From a virus: DNA of 39,521 bases. The notes beneath the pieces are model-generated. The model ran no database searches. It was given only the letters and a program-made list of their open reading frames with translations, and was not told the origin of the DNA. The translations under genes and the position numbers were made by a program. The first letter of the stretch is position 1; each line of letters opens with the position of its first letter. Below, one piece after another: positions 1 through 16,055 of this stretch. The DNA lies in UHGV virus genome UHGV-0321984, one strand, 5' to 3'.

Positions 1-640
1 CCTCAACTTCTTTCAGAAATTCCTTAGAGATGAATGGATTATCTCGATAGGTCGAGTGATGAATAAAAGTATTGTCCGGTTGAAAAGAAGTCTCATATTT
101 TTTATTTACCCAAGATTGTTTTCTCTTAGGTGGGTTGTAGCTGTAAAAAAACTTATAAAAAAGACCATCATCTAACTCTCCACGTAAAAGGGAGTTCGTG
201 ATAGTCGTGACTTCATCTTCTGTTTTAAATTCTGCTAATTCTTCAATCCAACCTATAGCAAATGGGAACTTGCTATCTTTTAAAGACTTGATTCGTTCTG
301 GGTTTTGAGCACCGCGAAATATCATATAATTTCCTCTTGGAAGATAGGTAATTTTAAGTGGTGACTTATTAAACTTAAATAGGCGCGATACTCCCTGCTT
401 CTCAATTGCCCATTTCATTTGCTCGTAAATAGATTGCTCAAGTGTATTATCAACATAACGTATACCTACAGCATTCACAGCGTAACGCATAAGTAACTGA
501 GTAATGATATGCGCTATATCTGATGATTTTCCTGACCCCCGGCCACCTTTACAAACTATATTAAGAATGTCTTGATTTAAAGTCGCTCTCCATACTGAAT
601 GAAACTTCGGCGGAAGAAATTCAGATAGTTTTTTAGCCAT
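1..640 (-). CDS. terL: Terminase large subunit, N-terminal ATPase part (start ATG at 640). The ORF runs off the window start and continues in frame at 39521.
   Basis: Minus-strand translation from 640 gives MAKKLSEFLPPKFHSVWRATLNQDILNIVCKGGRGSGKSSDIAHIITQLLMRY... (Walker A GRGSGKS) ...HSTYRDNPFISKEFLKEVE, with no stop before position 1. The start overlaps the terS stop. Confidence 0.8.
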   Translation of the reverse strand, partial: MAKKLSEFLPPKFHSVWRATLNQDILNIVCKGGRGSGKSSDIAHIITQLLMRYAVNAVGIRYVDNTLEQSIYEQMKWAIEKQGVSRLFKFNKSPLKITYLPRGNYMIFRGAQNPERIKSLKDSKFPFAIGWIEELAEFKTEDEVTTITNSLLRGELDDGLFYKFFYSYNPPKRKQSWVNKKYETSFQPDNTFIHHSTYRDNPFISKEFLKEVE

Positions 641-1088
641 CATCATCACTACTTATATCATCAATGAAAGTAGGTATTTCAGAAATTTCAACTTTCTGCT
701 TATCTACAAATGCTGCGTTTATTTTATAATAATGCTCAAGTGCTTGGTTACGTTCTTTGAAACCTGCTGAATATTCACTCACTTCACGTTCTATGATTTC
801 GTTTGTATAAGGATCTCTCTTAACAACTTCAAAGCGTTGTGGTTCTCCTTTTGCAATAGAAGCAGTAATAGCCAAAGCTTCTTCCATTGTTAAATGCCTC
901 TTAGTTTGAACTTCTTTTAGCTTCTCTTGAATGTAGTCGGATACTTTTCCACCTTTTTCCACCAATTTTTCTTGTGCGTTCTTAGCGTAGTTTTCTTTAT
1001 AGCCAGCTTTCAGCGCTGACTGATAAGCATTGCCCGTGATGATGTACTCATCAGCAAAGGCTTGTTGCTTAGGATTCAACTTACTCAT
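633..1088 (-). CDS. terS: Terminase small subunit
   Basis: 151 aa, MSKLNPKQQAFADEYIITGNAYQSALKAGY...; an HTH-like N-terminus typical of phage TerS. It sits immediately upstream of terL with a stop/start overlap. RBS AAAGGTGGTGA. Confidence 0.7.
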   Translation of the reverse strand: MSKLNPKQQAFADEYIITGNAYQSALKAGYKENYAKNAQEKLVEKGGKVSDYIQEKLKEVQTKRHLTMEEALAITASIAKGEPQRFEVVKRDPYTNEIIEREVSEYSAGFKERNQALEHYYKINAAFVDKQKVEISEIPTFIDDISSDDDG

Positions 1089-1106
1089 TTTCCATCACCA
1101 CCTTTG

Positions 1107-1337
1107 TTATATGTTAATGATATTTTTTATATTTGTCTGTATGTTCTGCTCACTAAAACATCCATGGCCACAGTAACGAAGATTGTACTTATCAATCTCT
1201 TTCGGTGTAGCTTCTCTGGTCATTTCAATGATGGAGTATTTCTTTTTAATCTGGACTGACTGAACCACTCTGATTGGATCATCTGTGTTGGGTTGTGGAT
1301 ACCTATTCGTTAGTGATACATACCAGTAGTTTCTCAT
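1107..1337 (-). CDS. Hypothetical protein (76 aa)
   Basis: ORF in the track. Its ATG overlaps the stop of the upstream small ORF (TAATG). No recognisable domain. Confidence 0.35.
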   Translation of the reverse strand: MRNYWYVSLTNRYPQPNTDDPIRVVQSVQIKKKYSIIEMTREATPKEIDKYNLRYCGHGCFSEQNIQTNIKNIINI

Positions 1338-1510
1338 TAGCCATTCTTCTCTTCAATAGCATTTAGATCATTGTAAATAGCCTTTGCTGTCTCTAATCCG
1401 ACCCGCAGTCTTCGTTGAATGACTCCAACAGTTAGCTCCATACCAACTTCTTCATATTCCTTCTTTAGTTGCTTCATTTCCTCGAAATCTTTAGTAGTAT
1501 ATTGTTTCAT
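1337..1510 (-). CDS. Small hypothetical protein (57 aa) with a possible winged-helix-like segment (IQRRLRVG)
   Basis: Not in the track (under 60 aa). Strong RBS AAAGGAGAA 6 nt before ATG 1510. Translation MKQYTTKDFEEMKQLKKEYEEVGMELTVGVIQRRLRVGLETAKAIYNDLNAIEEKNG. Stop overlaps the next start. Confidence 0.45.
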   Translation of the reverse strand: MKQYTTKDFEEMKQLKKEYEEVGMELTVGVIQRRLRVGLETAKAIYNDLNAIEEKNG

Positions 1511-1530
1511 ATAATTATTCTCCTTTTAAA

Positions 1531-1560
1531 TAAAATAAAAAGACCACTCAACGAGTGATC
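1531..1560 (-). terminator. Rho-independent terminator, minus-strand polarity
   Basis: On the minus strand: 8-bp stem GATCACTC-GTT-GAGTGGTC followed by TTTTTATTTTA. Confidence 0.45.
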
Positions 1561-1806
1561 TAATATGTAATAGCAACCTACACGCAGACAAGTCTGATAC
1601 TTCCTGCACCTAACCACTGCCACATCCCTCGGTTGCTAGCGGTTTTACTGACAGGCAGTTATAGATTACCGTAAACCAAAGTCACTGGCAAGGAGACAAA
1701 CCTTGCATGATACCTACCCTAATTTGAACTTACGTTCCGCCCTTAACTGGTTTCTTTTGGAAGTCAAGTGCGTTTACCTATTCCACCACAGTAATCAAAA
1801 AACAAC

Positions 1807-1834
1807 TTGTGAAAACGATTACTTGTTGTATAAT
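1807..1834 (+). promoter_or_regulatory. Sigma-A-like promoter for the plus-strand gene at 1888
   Basis: TTGTGA, 16 nt, TATAAT. Followed by RBS AGGAG and ATG at 1888. Confidence 0.45.
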
Positions 1835-1887
1835 AAATATTATCAACGATAGAGAGCGTTGAAATTAATCCTTAGGAGTGTTTTTAC

Positions 1888-2406
1888 ATGAACAAACATG
1901 AAATACAAGCATTTGAACATGCAGTTTTTACTTTCAATAGACTCGCTAAACGAGCAAACGAAGACTTTATTCCGTTTGAAATTATTTGGGATACAAGATT
2001 TGGCCCCGCAACAGCTACTAACGTTCTATACAAGACCAGCTCTAATCCAATTATAAATGAATATTTCTTCAACAATGAGTATTTCCGTGATGAAGAATCA
2101 AATAAAGCTGCATATATAGATGAGTTATATGCATATGTAGATCATGCTGTATCTCAATACTTCAGCGACCTAGTTAGCGGTGGCTATTCACCTAAATTGA
2201 ATATGGCAGAACGCCCACACGTTCTAATGGATAAGTTACTGGAACTATCTAAATTTGATGAAGCAATTAGTTTAAGAATGCCTAATTACTTAACCACTTG
2301 GGATTTTAAAACCTTAGACGAATCTATTAAATTGCCTTTCATTAATGATGAAACCCTGATATTACGTCCTCTATGTTTAATTAAAGAACAGACAACAACT
2401 TCATAA
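1888..2406 (+). CDS. Hypothetical protein (172 aa). A moron-like, oppositely oriented gene between the late activator and the packaging genes.
   Basis: ORF with RBS AGGAG, its own promoter and its own terminator. No recognisable domain. Confidence 0.55.
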   Translation: MNKHEIQAFEHAVFTFNRLAKRANEDFIPFEIIWDTRFGPATATNVLYKTSSNPIINEYFFNNEYFRDEESNKAAYIDELYAYVDHAVSQYFSDLVSGGYSPKLNMAERPHVLMDKLLELSKFDEAISLRMPNYLTTWDFKTLDESIKLPFINDETLILRPLCLIKEQTTTS

Positions 2407-2553
2407 GAAGAAATGAACTATTTTTGATTTGGTTTATTTGTAGCTGTTGCCTGTTTATTAACAATTTTAAAATAAACAGCGATCGTATAGAGAAAAAATA
2501 TGTGAGTAGTTTTTCCGATTGCTCTCTATTCAAAGAAGAAGTTAGCAACGATA

Positions 2554-2586
2554 AGGGAGGTTTCCTCCCTTACATTTTATTTTGTC
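2554..2586 (+). terminator. Rho-independent terminator
   Basis: AGGGAGG-TTT-CCTCCCT stem followed by TACATTTTATTTTG. Confidence 0.6.
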
Positions 2587-2674
2587 TCAGACCTATCACT
2601 AATCTTTCGACACTACCATAATATCACTGGTAAATAGCTAAAAACCGCCATCATTCCGCCAAAAAACCGCCAAA

Positions 2675-3088
2675 TTATTTATAAGCAATTATTCTTCCGT
2701 GTTTATATGCTTCTGCAAACTCTATTAGAGCTTCCGACTTCATCCGTTGTATACTTCTTTCTGAATAACCCACTTCACGGCTAATTCTGTAGTTTGAGAA
2801 GCTATCTGGCACACAGAAGCTGTAGTAGAGTATCTGACGGCTAATCAGACTAAGAGCCATCAAAGCCGCTAAAATCGCATCTCTCTCCGCTTCTATATCC
2901 ATCATCTGAATGATCGCATCTTCTGCCTTATTGCCGTGTTTCGGTGCCTTCGGCATATCCGTAATAATCGGCGACTTAATATCTATCAAAGAGCGACCTG
3001 CCATCCGCTCCAAACGCCGAAAGTTCTTCAGCACATCTCTCGCATTACATCTTGTCTGTTTGAAATCTACCTCTCGTAACAATTGCAT
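2675..3088 (-). CDS. ArpU-family phage late transcriptional activator
   Basis: About 137 aa with a C-terminal sigma-70 region-4-like segment (ISREVGYSERSIQRMKSEALIEFAEAY). The position just before the packaging module is typical of ArpU/RinA/Alt-type activators. RBS AAAGGAGCGG. Confidence 0.65.
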   Translation of the reverse strand: MQLLREVDFKQTRCNARDVLKNFRRLERMAGRSLIDIKSPIITDMPKAPKHGNKAEDAIIQMMDIEAERDAILAALMALSLISRQILYYSFCVPDSFSNYRISREVGYSERSIQRMKSEALIEFAEAYKHGRIIAYK

Positions 3089-3143
3089 CAAGTCAAACCG
3101 CTCCTTTATGTGATATAATAAATGTGTTGGATTTATTGAATCA

Positions 3144-3170
3144 GTCGGAGCGATCCGGCTTTTTTTATTT
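3144..3170 (+). terminator. Plus-polarity intrinsic terminator hairpin preceded by an extended -10 (3111-3119); possible tiny antisense transcript
   Basis: GTCGGA-GCGA-TCCGGC stem plus TTTTTTTATTT. TGATATAAT lies at 3111-3119. Confidence 0.4.
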
Positions 3171-3176
3171 GCCGAG

Positions 3177-3341
3177 TTACACTTCTCGACTTACATAGCT
3201 CACAACAGCTGCATAGTAATTTGCATAACCTCTCTTAGAGGTTGCTAAAGATATATGCTGAATCTCATTGTTTTTCGCAAAATCGTTTAATTCTTTTTCT
3301 AATTTATAGCGAGTGTCCTCTTCAAAGATTTTAAATTTCAT
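3177..3341 (-). CDS. Small protein (54 aa), Cse60-like
   Basis: Not in the track. RBS GGAGG before ATG 3341. MKFKIFEEDTRYKLEKELNDFAKNNEIQHISLATSKRGYANYYAAVVSYVSREV. The pattern resembles small Cse60/YqaB-like proteins of Firmicute phages. Confidence 0.4.
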   Translation of the reverse strand: MKFKIFEEDTRYKLEKELNDFAKNNEIQHISLATSKRGYANYYAAVVSYVSREV

Positions 3342-3630
3342 TGTTTATAACCTCCATATCCACCAATCTCACCACTGCTAAATTCTCTTTGCTTTTCGCT
3401 AACCGCTTGTCACATTCCATCGTGTTTTCAATGCGAATGATTGCTGAGTGATTATAGAGATGCTCTACATATCCACGAAATGGATAGATGAACCCTTCTG
3501 CTTCGCAGCGAACCATGTCACCGACTTTGAATTTTGGTTTCTTACGTGTTTTAGGGTTCTTTGTCGGCATATCTAGCATTAAACCGCCGATACCATGACT
3601 ACTAGCGTAAAATCCGTCTTTTAGTTTCAT
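3331..3630 (-). CDS. Hypothetical protein (99 aa)
   Basis: ORF; ATGA overlap with the upstream gene. Confidence 0.5.
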   Translation of the reverse strand: MKLKDGFYASSHGIGGLMLDMPTKNPKTRKKPKFKVGDMVRCEAEGFIYPFRGYVEHLYNHSAIIRIENTMECDKRLAKSKENLAVVRLVDMEVINNEI

Positions 3631-3800
3631 TCCGCTTCCTCCTCATTGATCTCTATCTCGACATCTCTGCCTTCTAAAATCTGTTTGGTATCAATACCTT
3701 TTGTGGTCAATGCCAAACCACCATCTTTTCGTTCAGCAACAATACTAATTGCAATTGCCTTTGTTCCGTCTGGTATATGGAGCATTAGATGTCTGCTCAT
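3627..3800 (-). CDS. Hypothetical protein (about 57 aa; the track's longer version is 3627..3866)
   Basis: The ATG at 3800 overlaps the upstream stop (ATGA), which favours the short start. Confidence 0.4.
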   Translation of the reverse strand: MSRHLMLHIPDGTKAIAISIVAERKDGGLALTTKGIDTKQILEGRDVEIEINEEEAE

Positions 3801-4087
3801 CCTTCCGCCACCTCTTTCATTTCCAAATAAATTTGCCACACTTCTTCTGGATTCGAAGACATCCATGAAGAAGCATCAAAATACTCACCAGTCGCAAAAT
3901 ATCCATCTTCGAATGCAATCTCAAAAAATCTGATCATGTTCATAACATTCTGCTTTTCGCTATCAGTGGCGACCCAATACATTGAACGTTCACCGCTATC
4001 TATATGAATCTTTATTAATTCTCTAACCTTAACGAGTTTTCTTTCTAGCAGAAAACCATCGATCAAAGTTTTTATTTTTTTGATCAT
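3797..4087 (-). CDS. Hypothetical protein (about 97 aa; the track's longer version runs to 4165)
   Basis: The ORF's internal ATG at 4087 avoids a 68-nt overlap with the upstream gene. Confidence 0.45.
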   Translation of the reverse strand: MIKKIKTLIDGFLLERKLVKVRELIKIHIDSGERSMYWVATDSEKQNVMNMIRFFEIAFEDGYFATGEYFDASSWMSSNPEEVWQIYLEMKEVAEG

Positions 4088-4097
4088 CCGATTGAAC

Positions 4098-4772
4098 CTA
4101 CACTTTCTCGACTGGCACAGCAAACGGCCAGTAGTTTTCATCTGCTGATTTAATCGTAAGTTCATCTAATTTTGCGACAAAACCTTTTCTAGGTTCTTTT
4201 GTAGGAAATATTCTAGTTTCATCACTTGTGATCTCATAATGTAGATACAAATACTCTGTTTTAAGCTCCGCTGCCTCTTCATCCCAAACTTCATATGGTA
4301 GTCTCACATAATACAACGGTTCTTTCTCGACCTCGTAGCCGTCTTTCATGCGGATGAGGGTTTCGATTGGATTGTTTTCAGCATTATCAAGCCAATTTTC
4401 AAAATCTGTCTCGTGTGGGTATCTTTTACCGTCCAATTCTCTGATTTTCGTAAAAATCGCTAAATCTAATGCATGTTTGTTATCCTCAAACCAATCCGCC
4501 ACAAACTTCGGCATAACGTGTTTCTGCGGTTCACCAGTCTTACCAAATACAGCATTATCTAAAGTGTTTCTCAAGCTTTGTGCCGATTCAGGATAAGCCT
4601 CAGCTACCTTATTCCAAGCTTGTTCGTCTGTAATTTTTGATTCATTTAGTCTTTTCACCAACTTTAAAGATACTTCATAAGCGCCGTACCTTCCTTGACC
4701 ATGCTCATCCATAGCGTTCTCATAACTCTTTACATATTTAGCAAATTCATTAATCAATTCTTGTTTATTCAT
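4098..4772 (-). CDS. Hypothetical phage protein (224 aa)
   Basis: Long ORF, RBS AGGAGG. No confidently recognised domain. Confidence 0.55.
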   Translation of the reverse strand: MNKQELINEFAKYVKSYENAMDEHGQGRYGAYEVSLKLVKRLNESKITDEQAWNKVAEAYPESAQSLRNTLDNAVFGKTGEPQKHVMPKFVADWFEDNKHALDLAIFTKIRELDGKRYPHETDFENWLDNAENNPIETLIRMKDGYEVEKEPLYYVRLPYEVWDEEAAELKTEYLYLHYEITSDETRIFPTKEPRKGFVAKLDELTIKSADENYWPFAVPVEKV

Positions 4773-4782
4773 CGCTGTCCTC

Positions 4783-4917
4783 CTAAAAAATTAACTGCCA
4801 AAGCAATATAATCACTTTCAATGATACAAATCCCACCAGTGCAATAATTACAGATATAAACGCACAGTTTATGAAACAGCCAACTAAGACGCTTGCTTCT
4901 TCTAACCAGTCTTTCAT
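4783..4917 (-). CDS. Small hydrophobic membrane peptide (44 aa)
   Basis: Not in the track. TAATG coupling to the YopX gene and RBS GAGGAA. MKDWLEEASVLVGCFINCAFISVIIALVGFVSLKVIILLWQLIF. Its stop overlaps the RBS of the next gene. Confidence 0.35.
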   Translation of the reverse strand: MKDWLEEASVLVGCFINCAFISVIIALVGFVSLKVIILLWQLIF

Positions 4918-5342
4918 TACTGTTCCTCCAATAACTCGCTATTCTCGTATATATTTCCGATGACTTCGTACATGTATTCTTCAAACAGCTCTGTGTTAAA
5001 AATTCGATACTCTAAATCTTCATCAACAGTGGCACACACTAATCCCGAATGTCCTATTGAATTTTTGACAACACAAACTTTATTATCTAAGTAATCGAAT
5101 CCGTTTTGTACGCTGACTAATACTACATCCCCTTCAAATATTTCTACGCCATTCTTATCTTTCAGCCCTGTGGACTGCATGAGTTCGTACTTGTCAATCA
5201 TTCCCCACATGCCGCTTCCTAAATTTACTAGAGGAGCAATAAAGCCTGTTTCATCATCTATTGTCCAGTCTACGTTTTTGTCATTATGCGGATAGTACAT
5301 TTCATTCTCTTCTGTTGAATAAGCTCTAAACTTCGGTATCAT
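4917..5342 (-). CDS. YopX-family phage protein
   Basis: The N-terminus MIPKFRAY...EIFEGDVVLV matches the KFRAW/IYEGDIV pattern of YopX proteins. Confidence 0.55.
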   Translation of the reverse strand: MIPKFRAYSTEENEMYYPHNDKNVDWTIDDETGFIAPLVNLGSGMWGMIDKYELMQSTGLKDKNGVEIFEGDVVLVSVQNGFDYLDNKVCVVKNSIGHSGLVCATVDEDLEYRIFNTELFEEYMYEVIGNIYENSELLEEQ

Positions 5343-5557
5343 TCGCTATCCTCCTCAGCACAAAACGCACTTCTCATCAATATTGCATCTAGTGCTTCGT
5401 TAACTAACACGCTTGTCCATTCTCGTAACACTTCGTAATCTTCCCAATCGATATCATCTTCTTCGATATTGGCTCTAGCTAGTAATTCATCTACAGTCAA
5501 ATCATTTTTACTTTCATTTATAATTTCTTGTAGTGTTACAATTGATATTTTCTTCAT
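5339..5557 (-). CDS. Hypothetical acidic protein (72 aa)
   Basis: ORF; ATGA overlap. Confidence 0.45.
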   Translation of the reverse strand: MKKISIVTLQEIINESKNDLTVDELLARANIEEDDIDWEDYEVLREWTSVLVNEALDAILMRSAFCAEEDSE

Positions 5558-5847
5558 TATTTCTCCTCCTCAATCTCACATGCCTGTTCAAACTGTCTAG
5601 TGATGTTTTCTAACGCTTTTTTGTACTCGATAATACTTTTTATCGTTCTTTCTTCACTTAACACGTAATCGCGTTGTATCGCCTTTAAACACGATGAGAC
5701 AGTTTGGAAGTATCCGATATCTGCTCGTGATTCTTCTTTTGCTTCGGTGTAGCGAATGTTTCCTTCCTCATCTCGTCTTACCTTCGATAAGACAATATTT
5801 CTAGAATCACTGGTAATTCGATAATCTTCGATTTTCATATCTAACAT
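5557..5847 (-). CDS. Hypothetical protein (96 aa)
   Basis: ORF; overlapping start/stop. Confidence 0.45.
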   Translation of the reverse strand: MLDMKIEDYRITSDSRNIVLSKVRRDEEGNIRYTEAKEESRADIGYFQTVSSCLKAIQRDYVLSEERTIKSIIEYKKALENITRQFEQACEIEEEK

Positions 5848-6146
5848 TATTTCTCCTCCACATACCTAAACTGTCGTCCTTTTGAATCAATCCACAAGCT
5901 CCTAGCTCTATCCCAAATAATGTTTTTGCTCAGACCAGTAATTTCAGATAACTGTTCAGCAGTACCTGTTACTAGAATTCGATCACCATGCCAGATTGCA
6001 ATTTTTCTCGGTGTTCTCCGTTTGGGCTTTTCAGTCCACATTGATTTGCCGAGCTTTTGGACTTCTGCAACTATTTCTTTGTCTTCTTGCCAAGATTCTG
6101 ACTTGGTTAATTCAGCAATTCGTTTCATTGCTGCTTTCTTATCCAC
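5847..6146 (-). CDS. Putative HTH DNA-binding protein, paralogue B (99 aa)
   Basis: MDKKAAMKRIAELT...PRKIAIWHGDRILVTGTAEQLSEITGLSKNIIWDRAR. About 60% identical to the product of 6307..6609. GTG start with RBS GGAGG. Confidence 0.55.
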   Translation of the reverse strand: MDKKAAMKRIAELTKSESWQEDKEIVAEVQKLGKSMWTEKPKRRTPRKIAIWHGDRILVTGTAEQLSEITGLSKNIIWDRARSLWIDSKGRQFRYVEEK

Positions 6147-6148
6147 GT

Positions 6149-6310
6149 TTATTCCTCCAATCTACGAATTTCCCTTCTTAAATTCTCTATGTGCAAATCG
6201 ATTGCCTTTCTCGCCGTTTCATTGACCATCACTGCCTTTGTTCGTTCTAGATCGTCAATTTCACGCTGAATGTTTCGAATACGCATTTGAATCACTTCTT
6301 CTGTTGTCAT
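6149..6310 (-). CDS. Small coiled-coil protein (53 aa) between the two paralogues
   Basis: Not in the track. ATGA overlap with the upstream stop. MTTEEVIQMRIRNIQREIDDLERTKAVMVNETARKAIDLHIENLRREIRRLEE. Confidence 0.4.
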   Translation of the reverse strand: MTTEEVIQMRIRNIQREIDDLERTKAVMVNETARKAIDLHIENLRREIRRLEE

Positions 6311-6609
6311 GACGATCCCTCCACGTATCTAAACGTTCTCTTCTTAACGTCTGTGTATCCACACCTAGCTCTTTTTCTCACGATTTTCTCGTGCAAGCCT
6401 GTGAGACTTGCTAACTGTTCAGCTGTCCCTGTCACTAGAAGTTTGTCACCGTGCCAAATTGCGATTTTTCGTGGTCTTGGCTTGTTGCTCTTGTCTGCCC
6501 ACATCGCTCTTCCAAGCCTCATCACTTCTGAAGCAGCTTCTTTTTCATTTTGCCAATCTTCTGAATAAGTCAATTCGATAATTCGCTGCATTGCCGCTTT
6601 CTTATCCAT
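6307..6609 (-). CDS. Putative HTH DNA-binding protein, paralogue A (100 aa)
   Basis: MDKKAAMQRIIELT...PRKIAIWHGDKLLVTGTAEQLASLTGLHEKIVRKRAR. RBS AAAGGAGAA. Confidence 0.55.
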   Translation of the reverse strand: MDKKAAMQRIIELTYSEDWQNEKEAASEVMRLGRAMWADKSNKPRPRKIAIWHGDKLLVTGTAEQLASLTGLHEKIVRKRARCGYTDVKKRTFRYVEGSS

Positions 6610-6766
6610 CCCGACATTCTCCTTTCAGTAATTTGAGTACTTGATCAAGTGCGCTCTCACGTCCGCCATGAAACGTGTTGAGCCACTTGTCTTCGTACGA
6701 CACACTTTGTCTTAAAGCTTCTTGATGCATTAATTCGATCTGTGCTGTAAATGTCTTTAGGTCCAT
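6602..6766 (-). CDS. Small hypothetical protein (54 aa)
   Basis: Not in the track. MDLKTFTAQIELMHQEALRQSVSYEDKWLNTFHGGRESALDQVLKLLKGECRDG. Its stop overlaps the next start (ATGGATAA). Confidence 0.4.
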   Translation of the reverse strand: MDLKTFTAQIELMHQEALRQSVSYEDKWLNTFHGGRESALDQVLKLLKGECRDG

Positions 6767-6771
6767 CTTGT

Positions 6772-7041
6772 TTACACCTGCTCAAGTTCATTAAGATGTT
6801 TTTGCAAGCCTTTAACACAATCAACAAATAGTAATTTGGTATATGCTAAATTTCTTAATTGTGTTGTATCGATATAGAGTGCGAAATAGTATCTGAGCTT
6901 ACTACAACTCGAACGATCATTCTTAATTCCTTCGATTCCAGCTTCTTCGAGTTGATCATATACGTCTCTCAGGATTTCTATTTCCTCACCAGTTTTATAC
7001 TTCGCTATTTCATTAATTAGTTCTAGATAATCGATTTTCAA
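6772..7041 (-). CDS. Hypothetical protein (89 aa)
   Basis: ORF. Confidence 0.45.
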   Translation of the reverse strand: MKIDYLELINEIAKYKTGEEIEILRDVYDQLEEAGIEGIKNDRSSCSKLRYYFALYIDTTQLRNLAYTKLLFVDCVKGLQKHLNELEQV

Positions 7042-7052
7042 TTTTCCACCTC

Positions 7053-7802
7053 TTAGAATGGTGCTTTTGATTGTCTATTAGCTCGTTCTAGCGCTTTTTT
7101 CTTAAGATAGGCTTCTTGGTCGATTGCCCATTCAGGAAGCTTCTCTCGTCTCCCTGTGCGCTTGTATCCACTGCTTGCGCTCTTAGATTCATTTTTTTCT
7201 TTTCTTGCCCAGCTTCGAATAGTTGCCAAATAGTTTTTATAAGTCTTACCAGATGATTCACAATACTCAGATAGCCGTTCTATTCGTTCTTGATAGTCAT
7301 TAGGGAATTCTATTTTGAGTTTCTCCATCTGCTCATCTGACAAAAGAACATTTTTATACTCTCCGTATTTATGACGGATGGGCTTAGCCTTCGATTTTTT
7401 CGAAGGCGGTAAGTCTCTTATATATTCTTTTGTATTATTAAATGTATTATTAATAGATGTATTATTATCTTTGACTTTTTCGTCAATAGAGGTATTGCGT
7501 TTTTCGTCAATAGGGTATTGATTAATTCGTAGGTACCTATTGATTATTTGATTGGTACCCTCTTTGTAAATGATTTCCCGATTCAAGTATCCAAACTTAA
7601 TCAAATCACTTACCCATCTCGATATGGTCTCTTTATTCACACCATATAAATCTGCAAAGTACTCATTGCCTGCCCAACAAAAGCCTCTTTCATTACACAA
7701 GGCCGTTATCTCTCCGTATAACAACTTAGTATTTGGTTTAAGTCTTTTGTCGTACCTTACGTTGGCTGGTATAATCGCATAATAACTTCGATGTTCTGTC
7801 AT
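7053..7802 (-). CDS. Phage replisome organiser / DnaD-like replication initiation protein
   Basis: N-terminus MTEHRSYYAIIPANVRYDKRLKPNTKLLYGEITALCNERGFCWAGNEYFADLYGVNKETISRWVSDLIKFGYL, typical of the Phage_rep_org_N domain. A low-complexity linker is encoded by the iteron DNA. Confidence 0.7.
   Translation of the reverse strand: MTEHRSYYAIIPANVRYDKRLKPNTKLLYGEITALCNERGFCWAGNEYFADLYGVNKETISRWVSDLIKFGYLNREIIYKEGTNQIINRYLRINQYPIDEKRNTSIDEKVKDNNTSINNTFNNTKEYIRDLPPSKKSKAKPIRHKYGEYKNVLLSDEQMEKLKIEFPNDYQERIERLSEYCESSGKTYKNYLATIRSWARKEKNESKSASSGYKRTGRREKLPEWAIDQEAYLKKKALERANRQSKAPF
7431..7560. repeat. Probable origin of replication: iterons embedded in the replisome-organiser gene
   Basis: TGTATTATTA x3 (7431, 7444, 7460). 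TTTTTCGTCAATAG(A)GGTATTG x2 (7475, 7500). TATTGATTA x2 and two GGTACC palindromes (7531-7558). Confidence 0.5.
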
Positions 7803-7804
7803 TT

Positions 7805-8491
7805 TTACCCTCCAATATTTAACTTTTTGATTGTTTCCTGGTTTAATTTGATCCCTTTGATTTGATATTTATTTTTGAAATTAATCACACCTATTTTATG
7901 CTTCTCTGTGTGATGGATTCTGCAGAGTGCTGCAAATGTGTACTCTGAATGATCAACTTCCTTGCGCTTTCGTCTTCCCAGCGCCTTGTCAAAGTGATCG
8001 ATATCAGCTCCTGTTTTGCCACAGATGCAACAAACTCTTTTTGTGATGCATTTGTAGAAGTAATACTCTTGATTCGCGGGTAAAATCTCATAGCCTTCTT
8101 TGAAAGGAATATGATGTTCAAAGATGAAATCTAAGATGATATTTGCTAAGACATTGGCATCACTCACAGTTGTATTCGATTCGTCTTTCAGGCTTATTTT
8201 GCGCCCTGTGACACCTTCAAAACGGAAGTAGAAGAATTCCTTCCAGAAGTCCGTTGGCATGCCTGTATCGATAAAAATATCGCCTATCAGCGCATAGATG
8301 AAGTTTCGTTGCTGTACGGTGAAACGTCTAGGATCAATAAAACGAATTTCAATGACTCGATCGCCATCGTAGCCGTCATACATCGTCTTTAGTCGATCAA
8401 TGTTCACTTCTTCATTGATCGTTGCACCTATGTCTTTTCCTTTGAACTTTTTCAGAACCGCTGAATATGAATCGATTAATGGTTTAAACAC
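7805..8491 (-). CDS. Putative HNH-like (HNHc_6-type) nuclease
   Basis: C-terminal Cys/His cluster CCICGK...DIDH...CRIHHTEKH. Found next to SSAP and replication genes, as in related phages. Confidence 0.45.
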   Translation of the reverse strand: MFKPLIDSYSAVLKKFKGKDIGATINEEVNIDRLKTMYDGYDGDRVIEIRFIDPRRFTVQQRNFIYALIGDIFIDTGMPTDFWKEFFYFRFEGVTGRKISLKDESNTTVSDANVLANIILDFIFEHHIPFKEGYEILPANQEYYFYKCITKRVCCICGKTGADIDHFDKALGRRKRKEVDHSEYTFAALCRIHHTEKHKIGVINFKNKYQIKGIKLNQETIKKLNIGG

Positions 8492-8496
8492 TCATA

Positions 8497-9231
8497 TCAC
8501 TTCTCTTTTGTTTCTTCTCTGTACTGATCTTCAAGCCAATTAACGCCTCGTTTTAGAATGCCCAAGTCTCTCTTGGTCCATTTACTGTCATCAGCGGTTA
8601 TAGAAGCCGCATCAGTCAATGCAACAATTGCTTCATCAATTGATTTTTCGTACTTGTTAGCAACCAGTTGTAAAGCATCTAAGAATAGCTTTTTGCTTCT
8701 TTGGCTAGCTGGTTCAAGCATCGAGACATCTTCTGGCATATCTTCGCCAGCAAATATATATAGCCCTAGCCCAAACATCGCTAGATTTTTTACAAGACAG
8801 CGCATGATTGTTTTATTGATATCAAACATCGTTGCTGCTTCAACTCGCTTTTCGATTTTTCCAACAATCTCTTTTTTCTTCGTTTCGTTATTCAACTGAT
8901 AATCATTGACTTCGTAGGTATATGGCTCATCTTTCATTGCCTTGTTTGCACCATCCATGACTGGTAACCACATGTCACGCTTTACTCCGTTGACTGTGAT
9001 ACTGGTAAAAACCATATAGCCTGTTTTTTCATCAAAGAGGTATGGACGATGCGTTTCTGGATCACGATAGATTTCGTAGTCTACTTCTTCGCAGATTTTG
9101 CTGACTTCTGCCCACGCCCATGCCCAAGACAGATAAGTTAGTTTGTTTCTTTTTTCGACAACATCATTGACGGTTATCTTGTACAGACTATTGAATAATT
9201 TGTTATCGTTGCGTTTCGTTCCTTCACTCAT
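8497..9231 (-). CDS. Putative single-strand annealing protein (Sak/DUF1071-like recombinase)
   Basis: YLSWAWAWAE motif. Position in the recombination/replication module. Start taken at ATG 9231 (RBS GGAGG, 8-nt overlap with the upstream gene); the track's longer ORF runs to 9291. Confidence 0.45.
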   Translation of the reverse strand: MSEGTKRNDNKLFNSLYKITVNDVVEKRNKLTYLSWAWAWAEVSKICEEVDYEIYRDPETHRPYLFDEKTGYMVFTSITVNGVKRDMWLPVMDGANKAMKDEPYTYEVNDYQLNNETKKKEIVGKIEKRVEAATMFDINKTIMRCLVKNLAMFGLGLYIFAGEDMPEDVSMLEPASQRSKKLFLDALQLVANKYEKSIDEAIVALTDAASITADDSKWTKRDLGILKRGVNWLEDQYREETKEK

Positions 9232-9565
9232 CAAATTCTGCCTCCATTTCAGCAATGTATTTCTTACCTGATCCGTAATAAGAGATATCAATCAAGTTAT
9301 CTCTGTCGTACTCTTCTAGTGCATCAATCAAGCCATCTTCGATGACATAGATGTATTCAGGTTTTCTTGGCTGCTTCCATAGATGGATAAGGTAGACATG
9401 TCCCCAAATACTCACAAAATTGCCCAAATCGTCTTGATCACATGCTAGTTCTTCATCCGTCAAAAGATTACGTCTGATTTTTCGATTGCTTGTTTCCTTG
9501 ATATTCGATTTGCCCCAACTAGGATCAGTCAAATATTGATCTAGAGTGGAAAGTTCTTTTTCCAT
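9224..9565 (-). CDS. Hypothetical protein (113 aa)
   Basis: ORF, RBS AAGGAGATG. Confidence 0.45.
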   Translation of the reverse strand: MEKELSTLDQYLTDPSWGKSNIKETSNRKIRRNLLTDEELACDQDDLGNFVSIWGHVYLIHLWKQPRKPEYIYVIEDGLIDALEEYDRDNLIDISYYGSGKKYIAEMEAEFDE

Positions 9566-9620
9566 GTGGTAACATCTCCTTAGATGTATTTTCTTTGTGA
9601 CTCTATGCTTGCCGGCGGAG

Positions 9621-9749
9621 TCACTTTTTTATTTGTTGCCATGCTTTTTGCTTTTCGATATGCTGCTTGCTTAAAATAATAGGACGGTTATTGGTCCACC
9701 AATTATCAGCAATCACTTTACCGATTTTTAGCGCTTCTTCTCGTGCCAT
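9621..9749 (-). CDS. Small hypothetical protein (42 aa)
   Basis: Not in the track. Strong RBS AAAGGAGCAA. MAREEALKIGKVIADNWWTNNRPIILSKQHIEKQKAWQQIKK. Confidence 0.3.
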   Translation of the reverse strand: MAREEALKIGKVIADNWWTNNRPIILSKQHIEKQKAWQQIKK

Positions 9750-9891
9750 AGTTGCTCCTTTCTTTTGAATCAAGCAGATTGATTAAAACCATCAATGCTG
9801 CGAACAAACTTCCCCCGATAATACTTTGGTGTGCTACTATCACTAATAGCCCTAGGATGAATCCTATAAAAAGTGTGTCTGTCTTCTTCAT
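9718..9891 (-). CDS. Small membrane protein (57 aa)
   Basis: Not in the track. ATGA overlap with the upstream stop; RBS GGGAG. MKKTDTLFIGFILGLLVIVAHQSIIGGSLFAALMVLINLL... Confidence 0.35.
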   Translation of the reverse strand: MKKTDTLFIGFILGLLVIVAHQSIIGGSLFAALMVLINLLDSKERSNYGTRRSAKNR

Positions 9892-10076
9892 AATCTAATC
9901 TCCCTATTTTTTATTTCTAGCATTCTCAAATCCTCAAGTTCAGAAGCGATTAGTTCAGCTTGTCTATCTGATAGCTCATCGGCTTTTCTAAGCGCTTCAC
10001 GATCATCTTGTAATTGTTTCCTGCGTTGTTTAATCAAACGGAGAATTTGATGTTCTTGTTGCAATGTGTAGGACAT
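9888..10076 (-). CDS. Hypothetical coiled-coil protein (62 aa)
   Basis: ORF, RBS AAAGGAGAA. Confidence 0.45.
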   Translation of the reverse strand: MSYTLQQEHQILRLIKQRRKQLQDDREALRKADELSDRQAELIASELEDLRMLEIKNREIRL

Positions 10077-10096
10077 AAAATCATTCTCCTTTGCCT

Positions 10097-10381
10097 TTAG
10101 AACTCAAAGTTTTCTTTCAAAAATCTTTGGAGTTCTGATCGTTCAATTCTGATGTCTAACTTACTCCACTGCTGTGTTTTTAAGCCTAGGTTTATCCAAT
10201 GTGCTAATTTGTCATCACCAATGCCTAAAACTTTTTTTACCTCTGATTTGTTTGGATATGGAGGAAGCTCCACTGATTTATTCATAAGGTGTAATCGTTC
10301 TTCCAAAGAATTAAGCACTGCATTCGTGATTTGTGTAGTTAATTCGGAAACTACTAAATTATCTGGAATTGTTATTTGCAT
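10097..10381 (-). CDS. Hypothetical protein, possibly DNA-binding (94 aa)
   Basis: ORF, RBS AAAGGAGAAAAA. HTH-like segment SEVKKVLGIGDDKLAHWINLGL. Confidence 0.45.
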   Translation of the reverse strand: MQITIPDNLVVSELTTQITNAVLNSLEERLHLMNKSVELPPYPNKSEVKKVLGIGDDKLAHWINLGLKTQQWSKLDIRIERSELQRFLKENFEF

Positions 10382-10571
10382 AATTTTTCTCCTTTTCTAA
10401 TTCTGCTAGCACTGCCTCAATTGGCTTGATTTGTTTATCTGGCTTTCTACGTCCATTCATAATATCCGACATGTATGCTGTTGAAATACCAAGCTTTTCA
10501 GCTAACCAAGCTTGACTCTTGTCATGCGTAGCTAGCGCCACACGCACTTTTAAAATGAAGTCCTGCGACAT
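10359..10571 (-). CDS. XRE-family HTH protein (Cro-like)
   Basis: WLAEKLGISTAYMSDIMNGRRKP is a helix-turn-helix of the XRE type. Confidence 0.6.
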   Translation of the reverse strand: MSQDFILKVRVALATHDKSQAWLAEKLGISTAYMSDIMNGRRKPDKQIKPIEAVLAELEKEKNYANNNSR

Positions 10572-10573
10572 AA

Positions 10574-11350
10574 CTATCTCTCCTCTAATAGATCAATTTC
10601 TGGAATATATCCTTCTTTTTTTAGCGACTCATAAATGAACAAACGTCCTTTTTGAGTCCATTTAGTATTCATCACAACTTTTGTTCCGCCATCAGATTTC
10701 GGAATCTCAGTTGTATGAGATTTTGTATATCCTTGTCTCATATGTTTCTTACATAATAACCATTGATTGCCTACTTTTTTCTGAATACCTAGTTTATGAA
10801 GTAATTTATTCATCTGTTGTGGAGACATCCCATAATCTGCTGCAATCTGACTAATTGTTACTGAATCTGTAGAAGATAATATGCTATCTAAATACGAAAT
10901 TTTGGGTTCGTATTCTGCAATTTTTTGTTCTGCGATTAGTCTTCCAGTACGTTCTTCTTTCAACTTAGTTGCTAATTGGATGATTGTATCTGGATTAAGC
11001 AAAGCTTCTTCTACTTTTTCTGGAGTTAGATAACCTCCATGTTTTCTAATTGCTGGCAACACTTCACTTGTTACCCATCGTTTGAATTTTTTGGCAGAAG
11101 GAAGTTTTGATTTTAAGATTAAACTATAAAGGCCTGACTCGTTGATGATCGTCATCTCTCTTGATTGACCTGAGGTCGTGATTCGCGACCCCATCTTATC
11201 TTCCAAATCTACATGCCGCGACAAAGCATCTTTAGTGTTTGAATAACCTAAAACACTCGCAATGTCTTTACCTACAAAATATGGTTCATCATTTACTAAA
11301 ATGGTCCGAACTTCGTTTTGTTCAAAATTAAAAATTTGTGGTGTGTTCAT
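10574..11350 (-). CDS. Phage antirepressor (Bro-N plus KilA-C domains)
   Basis: N-terminal Bro-N signature (IFNFEQNEVRTILVNDEPYFVGKDIASVLGYSN) and a C-terminal KilA-C-like region. Start taken at ATG 11350 with RBS AAAGGAATGA; the track's longer ORF runs to 11380. Confidence 0.75.
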   Translation of the reverse strand: MNTPQIFNFEQNEVRTILVNDEPYFVGKDIASVLGYSNTKDALSRHVDLEDKMGSRITTSGQSREMTIINESGLYSLILKSKLPSAKKFKRWVTSEVLPAIRKHGGYLTPEKVEEALLNPDTIIQLATKLKEERTGRLIAEQKIAEYEPKISYLDSILSSTDSVTISQIAADYGMSPQQMNKLLHKLGIQKKVGNQWLLCKKHMRQGYTKSHTTEIPKSDGGTKVVMNTKWTQKGRLFIYESLKKEGYIPEIDLLEER

Positions 11351-11402
11351 TTTTTCATTCCTTTCTTTGATATAATTCACTTGTGAAAGTGAGGTGATAA
11401 AA
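11351..11402. promoter_or_regulatory. Compact bidirectional promoter/RBS module, copy 1
   Basis: TCATTCCTTTCTTTGATATAATT...GAAAGTGAGGTGA. Minus-strand RBS for the antirepressor, plus-strand TATAAT, and plus RBS GAGGTG for ORF 11403. About 80% identical to copy 2. Confidence 0.45.
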
Positions 11403-11828
11403 ATGGATACGAAAGAATACTTTGAAATTTATTCAGTTATAATAAATGTGTTTGAAAAAAATAATCCTAAAGATATGTTTGATTTATTTTCAGAGCTTCA
11501 TGATACAGATTTCATCCAATCAAGATTGAAGAATGGTTTTCCTCCTAAAGAGCTATCTAAATTTACGCTAGATACCGTAGATAATTTACTTTCAGACGGT
11601 TTGATTAAAGGCAAAAAGATTACTACAAAATCTGGTCCTATTTACATGTTTGATGGAATGACTACAGAAGGACGAAAGTTTCTATTGAATACAAACAATA
11701 AATCTAGTCAATTTGTTGAATACGTTAGGGATAACGGAATACCATTAGACCCAACTTCGATTTCAAAAGCTGTAATTAATTTTCTGTACTTTGTTTTTCG
11801 TAAGAAGCCGCAACAAAACTTAAGTTGA
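11403..11828 (+). CDS. Hypothetical protein (about 142 aa), rightward gene inside the early region
   Basis: Long ORF with RBS GAGGTGA 7 nt upstream of ATG 11403. Confidence 0.5.
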   Translation: MDTKEYFEIYSVIINVFEKNNPKDMFDLFSELHDTDFIQSRLKNGFPPKELSKFTLDTVDNLLSDGLIKGKKITTKSGPIYMFDGMTTEGRKFLLNTNNKSSQFVEYVRDNGIPLDPTSISKAVINFLYFVFRKKPQQNLS

Positions 11829-11964
11829 CTATCACTTGTTCAGGTGATAGTTCTTCTATTTTTACAGAATCTTCAATTACAAACTCCAACTTAAATCCAT
11901 CAATGTAAACAGCCCTTTCTGTTTCAACGACTTTATGACTTGGTTTTGGATACTCAAAAGGCAT
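11776..11964 (-). CDS. Hypothetical protein (62 aa)
   Basis: ORF whose 5' region (AAAGAAAGGAATGAGCAA-ATG) repeats the antirepressor RBS module. Confidence 0.4.
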   Translation of the reverse strand: MPFEYPKPSHKVVETERAVYIDGFKLEFVIEDSVKIEELSPEQVIVNLSFVAASYEKQSTEN

Positions 11965-12018
11965 TTGCTCATTCCTTTCTTTGGTATAATTTTGAATAGA
12001 AAGTGAGGTGAAAATAGT
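11965..12018. promoter_or_regulatory. Compact bidirectional promoter/RBS module, copy 2
   Basis: TCATTCCTTTCTTTGGTATAATT...GAAAGTGAGGTGA between divergent ORFs 11964(-) and 12019(+). Confidence 0.45.
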
Positions 12019-12240
12019 ATGGAAGAATTTAATATGGATGTCGATGCCTTATTCAAACAAACCGTATTCAAGACTGTTAATAAAGAATTCAAAATAGATT
12101 TCCAAAATGACGAATCTTTTCCAACAGAAATTGAGTTATTCGAAGAATTTTCTCGGAATGTTTCTGAGTCTTTTTCTCGCCAGTTGCAAAAGAATTTTTT
12201 TGATGCTCTTGTGGATGAATTTCATCAACAACAGCACTAA
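12019..12240 (+). CDS. Hypothetical acidic protein (73 aa)
   Basis: Module TATAAT plus RBS GAGGTG upstream. Intrinsic terminator immediately downstream. Confidence 0.45.
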   Translation: MEEFNMDVDALFKQTVFKTVNKEFKIDFQNDESFPTEIELFEEFSRNVSESFSRQLQKNFFDALVDEFHQQQH

Positions 12241-12310
12241 ACTTTTGGTCTTTAAAATTTAAAGTTATTAAAGCTCCTTTTGCGGAAGGAGTTTTTTTAT
12301 TTTGTTTCAT
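12089..12310 (-). CDS. Doubtful antisense ORF (73 aa) fully overlapping 12019..12240
   Basis: Perfect SD AAAGGAGG 7 nt before ATG 12310. However, it is in the antisense frame that is most often open by chance, and it reads through the plus-strand terminator. Confidence 0.2.
   Translation of the reverse strand: MKQNKKTPSAKGALITLNFKDQKFSAVVDEIHPQEHQKNSFATGEKKTQKHSEKILRITQFLLEKIRHFGNLF
12274..12304 (+). terminator. Rho-independent terminator
   Basis: CTCCTT-TTGCGG-AAGGAG stem followed by TTTTTTTATTTTG. Confidence 0.6.
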
Positions 12311-12955: not shown

Positions 12956-12963
12956 ATAAGTAG

Positions 12964-14935: not shown

Positions 14936-15140
14936 AAAAAAATCCCATAATTTACAAAAAAGCTCCATCCCTTGCTACACAAGAGATAGAGCAGTTTATT
15001 TATTAAGCTTCTTGAGCTACTGGATAAACAGACACTTCAATTATACTGTTTCCTGATAAGCTCTCAATGCTTCTGAACCCATGATATTAGTGTTTTTCTT
15101 CTATTATTAAATATCTTGTAATTTTCTATTCTTTCTAAAA

Positions 15141-16009: not shown

Positions 16010-16021
16010 TATCTATCAAAA

Positions 16022-16053: not shown

Positions 16054-16055
16054 TA

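What the first reader, a model, noticed from the sequence alone, without database searches (positions are those of the whole stretch)
1..640. The window ends join in frame inside terL, so the sequence is a complete circular (or circularly permuted) phage genome
The minus-strand ORF that starts at 640 is still open at position 1. The minus-strand ORF that ends at 38863 is still open at 39521. The phase matches exactly: base 1 is the first base of a codon completed by 39521 and 39520 (GCA, Ala). The junction reads ...LKEVE-A-TRERNPRRAEWEYDGK..., which is the conserved TerL region between the ATPase and nuclease domains. The combined ORF is 1299 nt (432 aa), normal for a PBSX-type TerL. The integrase and attP sit mid-window with phage genes on both sides, and no host genes are present. 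The element is therefore excised, replicative or virion-derived, not an integrated prophage fragment.
Basis: seen in the sequence. Interest (0 to 1): 0.6.

Follow-up and report, generated by a model that had tools for sequence, protein, structure and literature searches.

The report
Complete circular Enterococcus temperate phage genome
The two ends of this 39.5-kb sequence are neighbours inside one intact DNA-packaging gene, so the window is one complete copy of an ordinary temperate Enterococcus phage in its excised (not chromosome-integrated) form, opened at an arbitrary point by the assembler.

Summary
Minus-strand ORF 640→1 continues in frame into 39521→38863. The joined ORF is 1299 nt (432 aa), and the junction codon is GCA (Ala214). 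The joined protein is a single intact PBSX/SPP1-type large terminase: 59% identical to SPP1 G2P over 409 residues with no gaps, and 432/432 identical to terminase genes that are contiguous in other public assemblies.

Twenty-seven IMG/VR contigs read through the junction without a gap. One 197.6-kb NCBI contig matches the joined window gap-free over 21,500 nt at 99.986% identity.

The interpretation also holds. The window carries every phage module once. It has a single 36-nt attP core (15002-15037, the 3' end of host rpmA) next to the integrase. In chromosome-scale contigs the same sequence is split into attL (100% identical up to 15037, then rpmA-prp-rplU) and attR (host PTS genes, then 100% identical from 15002).

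The window is therefore one exact unit in the attP configuration. The SPP1-like terminase predicts headful packaging, which gives circularly permuted virion DNA. Sequence alone cannot tell an excised circle from permuted linear DNA.

This is ordinary biology and an assembly convention. The only mildly notable feature is a clean terS+terL cassette swap relative to the closest phages.

The parts
1..640 (-). 5' part of terL: start codon at 640-638, codons 1-213, and the first base of codon 214 (ATPase domain, Walker A KGGRGSGKS)
   Evidence: frame and translation; Terminase_3, aa 28-230; ungapped alignment to SPP1 G2P
38863..39521 (-). 3' part of terL: last two bases of codon 214 through the stop codon at 38865-38863 (RNase H-like nuclease domain)
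   Evidence: Terminase_3C, aa 265-409; PDB 2wbn, E 7.5e-78, aa 230-412
633..1088 (-). terS, small terminase subunit (151 aa); overlaps the terL start by 8 nt
   Evidence: Pfam Terminase_2, 6e-21; phrog_51; overlap
37351..38850 (-). SPP1-type portal protein (499 aa), 12 nt downstream of the terL stop
   Evidence: TIGR01538, 342.7 bits; 99.6% to the B1578 portal; PF05133 SPP1_portal
38878..39521 (-). Left part of the terS+terL cassette that differs from the closest phages (B1578, D2SVT, p264a-b); homology to them stops at 38877
1..1122 (-). Right part of the same swapped cassette (1766 nt in total); homology to B1578/D2SVT resumes at 1123
13762..14910 (+). Tyrosine integrase (382 aa)
   Evidence: 99.7% to the B1578 integrase; Pfam Arm-DNA-bind_4, Phage_int_SAM_3, Phage_integrase; always adjacent to host rpmA in chromosomes
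15002..15037 (.). attP core (36 nt): identical to the 3' end of host rpmA (codons VSVYPVAQEA plus stop, read on the minus strand); the only copy in the window
   Evidence: homology to the E. ratti prophage ends at 15037 inside rpmA; single copy; attL identity ends at 15037, attR identity starts at 15002
12608..13386 (+). Lysogeny control genes: HTH repressor (12608-12955) and ImmA/IrrE metallopeptidase (12973-13386)
   Evidence: 100% and 99.3% to B1578 gp34 and gp33; HTH_3, Peptidase_M78
15215..16405 (+). Cargo genes on the attR side: bPH_3/SHOCT-domain protein (15215-16009) and DUF5960 protein (16094-16405)
16921..16994 (-). Phage-borne tRNA-Met (CAT)
   Evidence: also annotated in B1578 and D2SVT
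18155..19379 (-). Lysis module: amidase endolysin (18155-19171) and holin (19182-19379)
   Evidence: (Amidase_2, Phage_holin_Dp1)
19402..37346 (-). Head, neck, tail and fibre genes (minor capsid, scaffold, major capsid, connectors, tail tube, chaperones, tape measure, Dit, Tal, BppU-type fibres, GDSL esterase), each present once
1107..12310 (-). Early and replication region: antirepressor, HTH proteins, Sak-like SSAP, HNHc nuclease, replication initiator, YopX, DUF1642, ArpU late activator and small ORFs

Best explanation
The window is exactly one genome unit (39,521 bp) of a temperate Enterococcus siphovirus, written as a circular map that was opened at an arbitrary point. That point happens to fall in codon 214 of the large-terminase gene.

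Shown: the two ends are adjacent in the real genome, and the joined gene is one intact SPP1 G2P-like (PBSX-family) terminase. Every functional module is present once. The sequence carries attP: a 36-nt core equal to the 3' end of rpmA, flanked on both sides by phage DNA. It does not carry attL or attR.

Inferred life cycle: the tyrosine integrase recombines the attP core with the 3' end of chromosomal rpmA, which regenerates an intact L27 gene. On induction, excision restores the circle. The circle replicates into concatemers. TerS (Terminase_2 family) recognises a pac site, probably in or near terS. TerL makes the first cut and pumps DNA through the SPP1-type portal until the head is full. 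This yields terminally redundant, circularly permuted linear virion DNA. Reads from either the excised circle or the permuted virion DNA assemble into a circle, so the window ends are not physical termini.

Relative to its nearest sequenced relatives, this phage carries a different terS+terL cassette, exchanged precisely at the gene boundaries.
For: Frame and junction.

Single intact terminase: Pfam Terminase_3 + Terminase_3C; TIGR01547 in one stretch, 167.6 bits; 88.4% single-piece match to IME197 TerL; 59% identity with 0 gaps to SPP1 G2P over aa 4-412; PDB 2wbn E 7.5e-78 and 4idh E 4e-12.

Independent contiguity: 12 + 15 IMG/VR contigs are ungapped across the joint. L040 matches 21,500/21,500 nt at 99.986% through the joint, and TerL is 432/432 identical in L042, L044 and L045.

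Completeness: gene-by-gene collinearity with the 40,049-bp phage B1578 as a reverse-complemented circular permutation, with each module present once. Relatives measure 40,049, 40,170 and 39,549 bp.

attP: attL identity runs over window 3762-15037 (100%) and is followed by rpmA-prp-rplU. attR has host PTS and sigma-54 activator genes followed by identity over 15002-26009 (100%). The core occurs once in the window. The phage record B1578 reads through attP in one 4-kb HSP.

Headful prediction: SPP1-like TerL, Terminase_2 TerS and an SPP1-type portal. The authors of IME197, the phage with the closest TerL, report that the genome was 'randomly opened' (PMC5026427). That SPP1 is a pac/headful phage is established knowledge, not tested here.
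Against: No read-level data are available. The physical form (circle, permuted linear DNA or concatemer) and any terminal redundancy are therefore untested.

The window's own contig was not found in IMG/VR, the phage collection or PLSDB. So I cannot see whether the source assembly flagged it as circular or trimmed an overlap.

Headful packaging is inferred from homology only, and no pac site was located.

The prophage evidence is pieced together from different assemblies (L040, L047, L057). About 1.3 kb (26010-27350) is covered only by relatives of lower identity (B1578 Tal, 98% aa).
Confidence: 0.93

Rival explanations
1. The sequence represents a stable extrachromosomal, plasmid-like circular prophage (carrier state), not a transient excision product or virion DNA.
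For: A close relative with the same gene order is deposited as a 39,549-bp circular 'plasmid' (p264a-b) in a finished E. faecium genome. The window is likewise in the attP configuration.
Against: No partition or plasmid-replication genes were seen in the annotation transfer or the Pfam lists. PLSDB types p264a-b as non-mobilizable and gives no replicon typing. The element has a complete integrase, attP and repressor module, and 99.98-100% identical copies are integrated at rpmA in many chromosomes. Circular phage contigs labelled as plasmids in finished assemblies are a common result of spontaneous induction (my own knowledge).
Confidence: 0.05
2. The circle is an assembly artefact of a tandem double lysogen or of a repeat, so the DNA was in fact integrated.
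For: A tandem prophage array also contains an attP-like junction and forms a cycle in an assembly graph. Several isolate-genome contigs break within the terminase region at window positions 200-800, which suggests this cassette can act as an assembly repeat.
Against: A cycle created by tandem prophages branches at the att core, so contigs would break at about 15002-15037 and not inside terL. The window has no host flank. Its ends abut with zero overlap and zero gap relative to 27 independent contigs, which is not what a repeat-broken linear contig would show.
Confidence: 0.02

Closest known systems
Enterococcus phage vB_ElaS_B1578 (PQ283533.1, 40,049 bp) and its near-twin deposited as 'Acinetobacter phage D2SVT' (PQ554527.1)
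   Same: They share the gene order, as a circular permutation. About 95% nucleotide identity covers 73% of the window. The portal is 99.6%, the major capsid 100% and the integrase 99.7% identical. They also share the attP core, the tRNA-Met and the PH-domain/DUF5960 cargo.
   Different: terS and terL are replaced. B1578 TerS (282 aa) has no match in the window, and B1578 TerL (414 aa) is only 23% identical over its C-terminal part. The distal tail fibres, the cargo between the tRNA-Met and the endolysin, and several early genes also differ.
Bacillus phage SPP1 terminase (G1P/G2P) and portal (gp6), the reference headful (pac) packaging system of Gram-positive siphoviruses
   Same: TerL is 59% identical to G2P over 409 aa without gaps. 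The nuclease domain matches PDB 2wbn at E 7.5e-78. The portal meets TIGR01538 portal_SPP1. TerS is in Pfam Terminase_2, the family I recall for SPP1/SF6 G1P.
   Different: The portal is only about 22% identical to SPP1 gp6. The rest of the genome is unrelated, and SPP1 is virulent with no integrase. The pac site and headful cutting were not demonstrated here.
Enterococcus faecium 264a 'plasmid' p264a-b (NZ_CP091215.1, 39,549 bp, circular)
   Same: It is a related temperate phage in circular attP form, with the same module order, the same rpmA core, and int followed by the PH-domain and DUF5960 genes.
   Different: It carries a third terminase combination (TerS 177 aa, TerL 414 aa). Its replication module (replisome organizer plus ATPase) and its fibre genes also differ.
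Enterococcus phage vB_EfaS_IME197 (KT945994 / NC_028671)
   Same: It has the closest TerL in the phage collection (88.4% over the full length, one piece). It is a temperate siphovirus whose assembly had no fixed ends.
   Different: The rest of the genome is only distantly similar, at about 75% nucleotide identity in the capsid and scaffold genes.

Membership tests
PBSX-family / SPP1 G2P-like large terminase (TIGR01547; Pfam Terminase_3 + Terminase_3C) | Whole-protein score above the curated family cut-off, in a single stretch | tested here: met
   TIGR01547 scored 167.6 bits against a cut-off of 105.05, aa 28-416 in one stretch. Terminase_3 scored 154.5 bits against 23.2, and Terminase_3C 64.3 against 26.7.
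PBSX-family / SPP1 G2P-like large terminase (TIGR01547; Pfam Terminase_3 + Terminase_3C) | N-terminal ATPase domain with a Walker A motif | tested here: met
   KGGRGSGKS at aa 31-39 aligns with SPP1 KGGRGSAKS. There is also a match to the chain 4idh, deposited as 'Gene 2 protein', over aa 29-227; I recall this entry as phage Sf6 gp2.
PBSX-family / SPP1 G2P-like large terminase (TIGR01547; Pfam Terminase_3 + Terminase_3C) | C-terminal RNase H-like nuclease domain | tested here: met
   PDB 2wbn/2wc9 'terminase large subunit' matched at E 7.5e-78 over aa 230-412. That these entries are SPP1 G2P is from my memory, but it is consistent with the 59% identity to the SPP1 record.
PBSX-family / SPP1 G2P-like large terminase (TIGR01547; Pfam Terminase_3 + Terminase_3C) | Gene context terS - terL - portal | tested here: met
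   terS is 633-1088 and overlaps terL by 8 nt. The portal starts 12 nt after the terL stop.
PBSX-family / SPP1 G2P-like large terminase (TIGR01547; Pfam Terminase_3 + Terminase_3C) | pac-initiated headful cleavage giving permuted, terminally redundant DNA | not testable with these tools
   This needs virion DNA restriction mapping or read-termini analysis. It is inferred only from homology to SPP1.
Complete circular (or circularly permuted) phage genome | The ends abut with no gap and no overlap when compared with independent sequences | tested here: met
   27 IMG/VR contigs are ungapped over +-300 nt. L040 matches 21,500/21,500 nt at 99.986% across the joint. The window has no terminal repeat of 8 nt or more.
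Complete circular (or circularly permuted) phage genome | All functional modules present exactly once, and a size like that of complete relatives | tested here: met
   Annotation transfer from B1578. The window is 39,521 bp, against 40,049, 40,170 and 39,549 bp for relatives.
Complete circular (or circularly permuted) phage genome | One att core flanked by phage DNA on both sides (attP), with no host flanks | tested here: met
   The core at 15002-15037 occurs once. attL and attR in chromosomes break at exactly 15037 and 15002.
Complete circular (or circularly permuted) phage genome | Reads spanning the junction, with circularity or terminal redundancy in the raw assembly | not testable with these tools
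   No reads or assembly graph are available, and the source contig was not found in the searchable collections.
Temperate phage integrating through a tyrosine integrase into the 3' end of rpmA | Tyrosine recombinase catalytic domain, with an arm-binding N-terminus | tested here: met
   Pfam Arm-DNA-bind_4, Phage_int_SAM_3, Phage_int_M and Phage_integrase are on record for the identical protein. It shows Xer-like similarity below the equivalog cut-offs, as expected for a phage integrase.
Temperate phage integrating through a tyrosine integrase into the 3' end of rpmA | An identical core sequence shared by attP, attL and attR, with the target gene regenerated | tested here: met
   The 36-nt core is present in the window, in six attL loci and in six attR loci. 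The core encodes the L27 C-terminus VSVYPVAQEA*. rpmA also abuts a 73%-identical integrase in E. malodoratus.

The most novel reading that the evidence does not exclude
Otherwise near-identical rpmA-integrating Enterococcus phages (about 95-100% identical backbones) carry at least three alternative terS/terL cassettes, exchanged exactly at the cassette boundaries. This could reflect selection to change pac specificity, for example to escape or exploit satellite elements or to alter transduction, and not neutral mosaicism. Separately, the attP-form circle might persist as a plasmid-like carrier state, as the p264a-b record hints.
Probability: 0.1. Interest if true: 0.35.

Novelty: already known. 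Interest (0 to 1): 0.08.

Why it matters
The main value is practical. The window can be treated as a complete, correctly closed phage genome. For annotation it should be rotated to start upstream of terS, so that terL is not split into two false partial genes. Its integration site (the 3' end of rpmA, core 15002-15037) and its likely packaging mode (SPP1-like headful, and therefore capable of generalized transduction) can be stated with good support. None of this is surprising to a phage biologist. Circular closure of temperate or pac-phage assemblies, integration into the 3' ends of conserved genes, and modular terminase exchange are all textbook.

Tried and rejected
(1) An exact junction 30-mer search in genome contigs found nothing.

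(2) I looked for the window's own contig. No IMG/VR contig holding the window-start 37-mer has length 39,521. The best matches in the phage and plasmid collections are about 95-97% identical. The source and its circularity flag could not be recovered.

(3) Literature on pac versus cos for this TerL clade was mostly out of reach. The Kilcher 2010 (NF5) and Yasmin 2010 (phiFL) papers are not held. The other papers searched gave no experimental termini for close relatives. Only the IME197 announcement was informative.

(4) I considered that the two halves come from different terminase genes (a chimeric join). This is rejected by the ungapped SPP1 alignment and the 432/432 identity to contiguous genes.

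(5) I considered that the tRNA-Met marks attP. This is rejected: it is a complete gene about 1.9 kb from the mapped core, and it lies inside phage DNA in both attR-side loci and phage records.

(6) A PADLOC scan of the cargo ORFs found nothing meaningful, only a weak MTase_II hit at E 3.7e-4 for 17415-17993. tblastn of that ORF against the phage collection found no match.

(7) No pac site search was attempted, because TerS is too diverged from SPP1 G1P for motif transfer.

Full report
**1. The observation**

I read both window ends. I then joined 38863..39521 to 1..640 and translated the reverse complement. The joined ORF is 1299 nt, which gives 432 codons plus a stop. The two parts are 640 nt (phase 1) and 659 nt (phase 2). 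The junction codon is GCA, Ala214, made of base 1 plus bases 39521 and 39520. The window has no terminal direct repeat of 8 nt or more, so the ends abut and do not overlap. Three in-frame ATGs at 640, 643 and 646 make the start ambiguous by one or two codons. Independent gene calls on related contigs give 432 or 433 aa.

**2. Is it one gene?**

The joined protein matches Pfam Terminase_3 (aa 28-230, E 3e-45) and Terminase_3C (aa 265-409, E 2e-17). It matches NCBIfam TIGR01547, 'PBSX family phage terminase large subunit', in a single stretch over aa 28-416 at 167.6 bits against a cut-off of 105.

tblastn against 50,697 phage records gives single-piece matches over residues 1-432. The best is 88.4% to Enterococcus phage IME197 TerL.

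Against solved structures, aa 230-412 match 2wbn/2wc9 at E 7.5e-78, and aa 29-227 match 4idh at E 4e-12. From memory, 2wbn is the SPP1 G2P nuclease domain and 4idh is Sf6 gp2.

A direct BLASTP against SPP1 gene 2 (NC_004166, 307-1575) gives 59% identity over 409 residues with zero gaps, covering aa 4-412. Residue 214 therefore sits in the middle of one uninterrupted alignment, and the 'two different terminase genes' refutation fails.

**3. Is the junction real DNA?**

A 30-mer spanning the joint occurs away from the ends of 12 IMG/VR contigs. A 37-mer starting at window base 1 occurs in 27 contigs.

All 27 are collinear with the joined window without gaps for 300 nt on each side. The first 12 stay collinear for 2.7-9.6 kb at 93-98.6% identity.

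Looking up contigs that encode the window's exact portal protein returned chromosome-scale NCBI contigs of 117-334 kb. On each, a 151-aa Terminase_2 gene and a 432/433-aa Terminase_3+Terminase_3C gene lie directly upstream of the portal.

- Their TerL proteins are 430-432/432 identical to the joined ORF.
- L040 (GCA_046562225.1, a 197.6-kb contig) aligns 21,500/21,500 nt at 99.986% to the window, from 9329 down through 1|39521 to 27351.

So the ends are adjacent in nature, with no base missing or duplicated.

**4. Is it a whole genome, and in which configuration?**

The closest deposited phage is Enterococcus phage vB_ElaS_B1578 (40,049 bp). It covers 73% of the window at about 95% identity. 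Gene-by-gene transfer shows the window is a reverse-complemented circular permutation of it, with each module present once:

- terS, terL, portal, minor capsid, scaffold and major capsid;
- connectors, tail tube, chaperones, tape measure, Dit, Tal and fibres;
- holin and endolysin;
- cargo genes, tRNA-Met and integrase;
- ImmA, repressor and antirepressor;
- SSAP, HNHc nuclease, replication initiator and ArpU.

For attP I searched genomes with the integrase. In E. ratti, homology to the window stops at 15037, inside the 3' end of rpmA (L27), and prp and rplU follow. The window carries the last L27 codons, VSVYPVAQEA*, on its minus strand.

Exact-protein look-ups then gave both prophage ends:

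- **attL:** L047 (a 604-kb contig) is 100% identical to window 3762-15037, then continues into rpmA-prp-rplU-UDG.
- **attR:** L057 (a 2.23-Mb contig) has host mannose-PTS and sigma-54 activator genes, then is 100% identical to window 15002-26009.

The overlap, 15002-15037 (36 nt), is the core shared by attP, attL and attR. It occurs once in the window and once in each of B1578, D2SVT and p264a-b.

In the window the integrase (13762-14910) and the PH-domain gene (15215-16009) are neighbours across this core. That is the excision product, not a prophage fragment. B1578 reads through the same point in a single 4-kb HSP. No host gene is present beyond the roughly 33-nt rpmA tail that forms the core.

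**5. Mechanism**

Shown:
- an intact SPP1-like TerL;
- a Terminase_2 TerS that overlaps it by 8 nt;
- an SPP1-type portal 12 nt downstream (TIGR01538, 342.7 bits);
- a tyrosine integrase with a mapped core.

Inferred from established knowledge of SPP1 and relatives:
- packaging starts at a pac site and proceeds by headful cutting;
- this produces terminally redundant, circularly permuted virion DNA;
- such DNA, like the excised replicative circle, assembles into a circle with an arbitrary opening.

Two observations are consistent with this. The authors of IME197 (closest TerL) state that the assembled genome 'was randomly opened' (PMC5026427). Relatives are deposited as circular records: D2SVT and the 39,549-bp E. 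faecium 'plasmid' p264a-b. The window ends are therefore not physical termini.

**6. What cannot be decided**

Without reads I cannot separate an excised circle, permuted virion DNA, a plasmid-like carrier state, or (unlikely) a cycle from a tandem lysogen. The tandem or repeat artefact is disfavoured. Such graphs branch at the att core, not inside terL, and the ends abut perfectly. The window's own contig was not found in IMG/VR, the phage collection or PLSDB.

**7. Side result: a terminase cassette swap**

Homology to B1578, D2SVT and p264a-b stops at 38877, which is 15 nt inside the 3' end of terL. For B1578 and D2SVT it resumes at 1123, just upstream of terS. So exactly terS+terL (1,766 nt across the joint) is replaced.

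- B1578 and D2SVT carry a 282-aa TerS and a 414-aa TerL that is only 23% identical over its C-terminal part.
- p264a-b carries a third combination.
- Other prophages have the window's cassette attached to the same head genes at 98-100% identity.

This is standard modular mosaicism.

**8. Verdict**

What is there is an ordinary, complete temperate Enterococcus siphovirus genome in attP form, opened inside terL by an assembly convention. Near-identical prophages are already in public assemblies. Interest is low. The useful outputs are the closure itself, the attP/attB assignment (rpmA 3' end) and the predicted headful packaging.

Noticed in passing
window 38878-39521 plus 1-1122: Exactly terS+terL (1,766 nt) is swapped relative to the closest phages B1578 and D2SVT (TerL only 23% identical; the portal next door is 99.6% identical). 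p264a-b carries a third terS/terL combination on the same backbone.
   Followed up: yes
L039 (PQ554527.1, whole record; attP core at 8474): The GenBank record 'Acinetobacter phage D2SVT' (host A. baumannii AB5075) is about 95% identical to this Enterococcus phage. It has the same layout as Enterococcus phage B1578 and carries the Enterococcus rpmA attP core, so the host label is probably wrong (contaminant or mix-up).
   Followed up: partly
window 16921-16994 (-): A complete tRNA-Met (CAT) gene sits in the cargo region between attP and the lysis genes. It is also present in B1578 and D2SVT and is not the integration site.
   Followed up: partly
window 15215-16405 (+): The bPH_3/SHOCT-domain protein and the DUF5960 protein lie next to attR. 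The exact PH-domain protein is listed in 529 collection blocks, against 218 for the integrase and 89 for the portal. It is therefore a widely shared cargo pair across different prophages at this site. Function unknown.
   Followed up: no
window 17034-17993 (-): Two ORFs (126 and 192 aa) between the tRNA-Met and the endolysin have no Pfam or PHROG family and no match in the phage collection. Relatives carry different genes at this same position (SecB-like chaperone set, SocA_Panacea, DUF8426), so it looks like a variable cargo or defence hotspot.
   Followed up: partly
window 19747-20541 (-): A GDSL/SGNH esterase (264 aa) is embedded in the distal tail-fibre module and is absent from B1578. It may be a receptor-modifying or depolymerising tail enzyme.
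   Followed up: no
L006, L002, L012, L010 (contig ends at window positions about 200, 361, 614, 792): Several IMG/VR contigs derived from isolate genomes end inside the terL 5' half or terS. This suggests the terminase cassette is repeated among co-resident prophages and breaks short-read assemblies there.
   Followed up: no
window 1888-2406 (+): A 172-aa ORF (phrog_17213, unknown function) lies on the opposite strand to all its neighbours, between the ArpU late activator and terS. It is conserved at the same place in related prophages (L040, L042, L044, L045).
   Followed up: no
L014 (E. ratti DSM 15687 scaffold33) 1-8802: The E. ratti element with the 99%-identical integrase looks rearranged or degraded. 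A lysin/holin-like fragment at locus 2-289 lies only a few kb from replication genes, and the similarity to the window is patchy.
   Followed up: no
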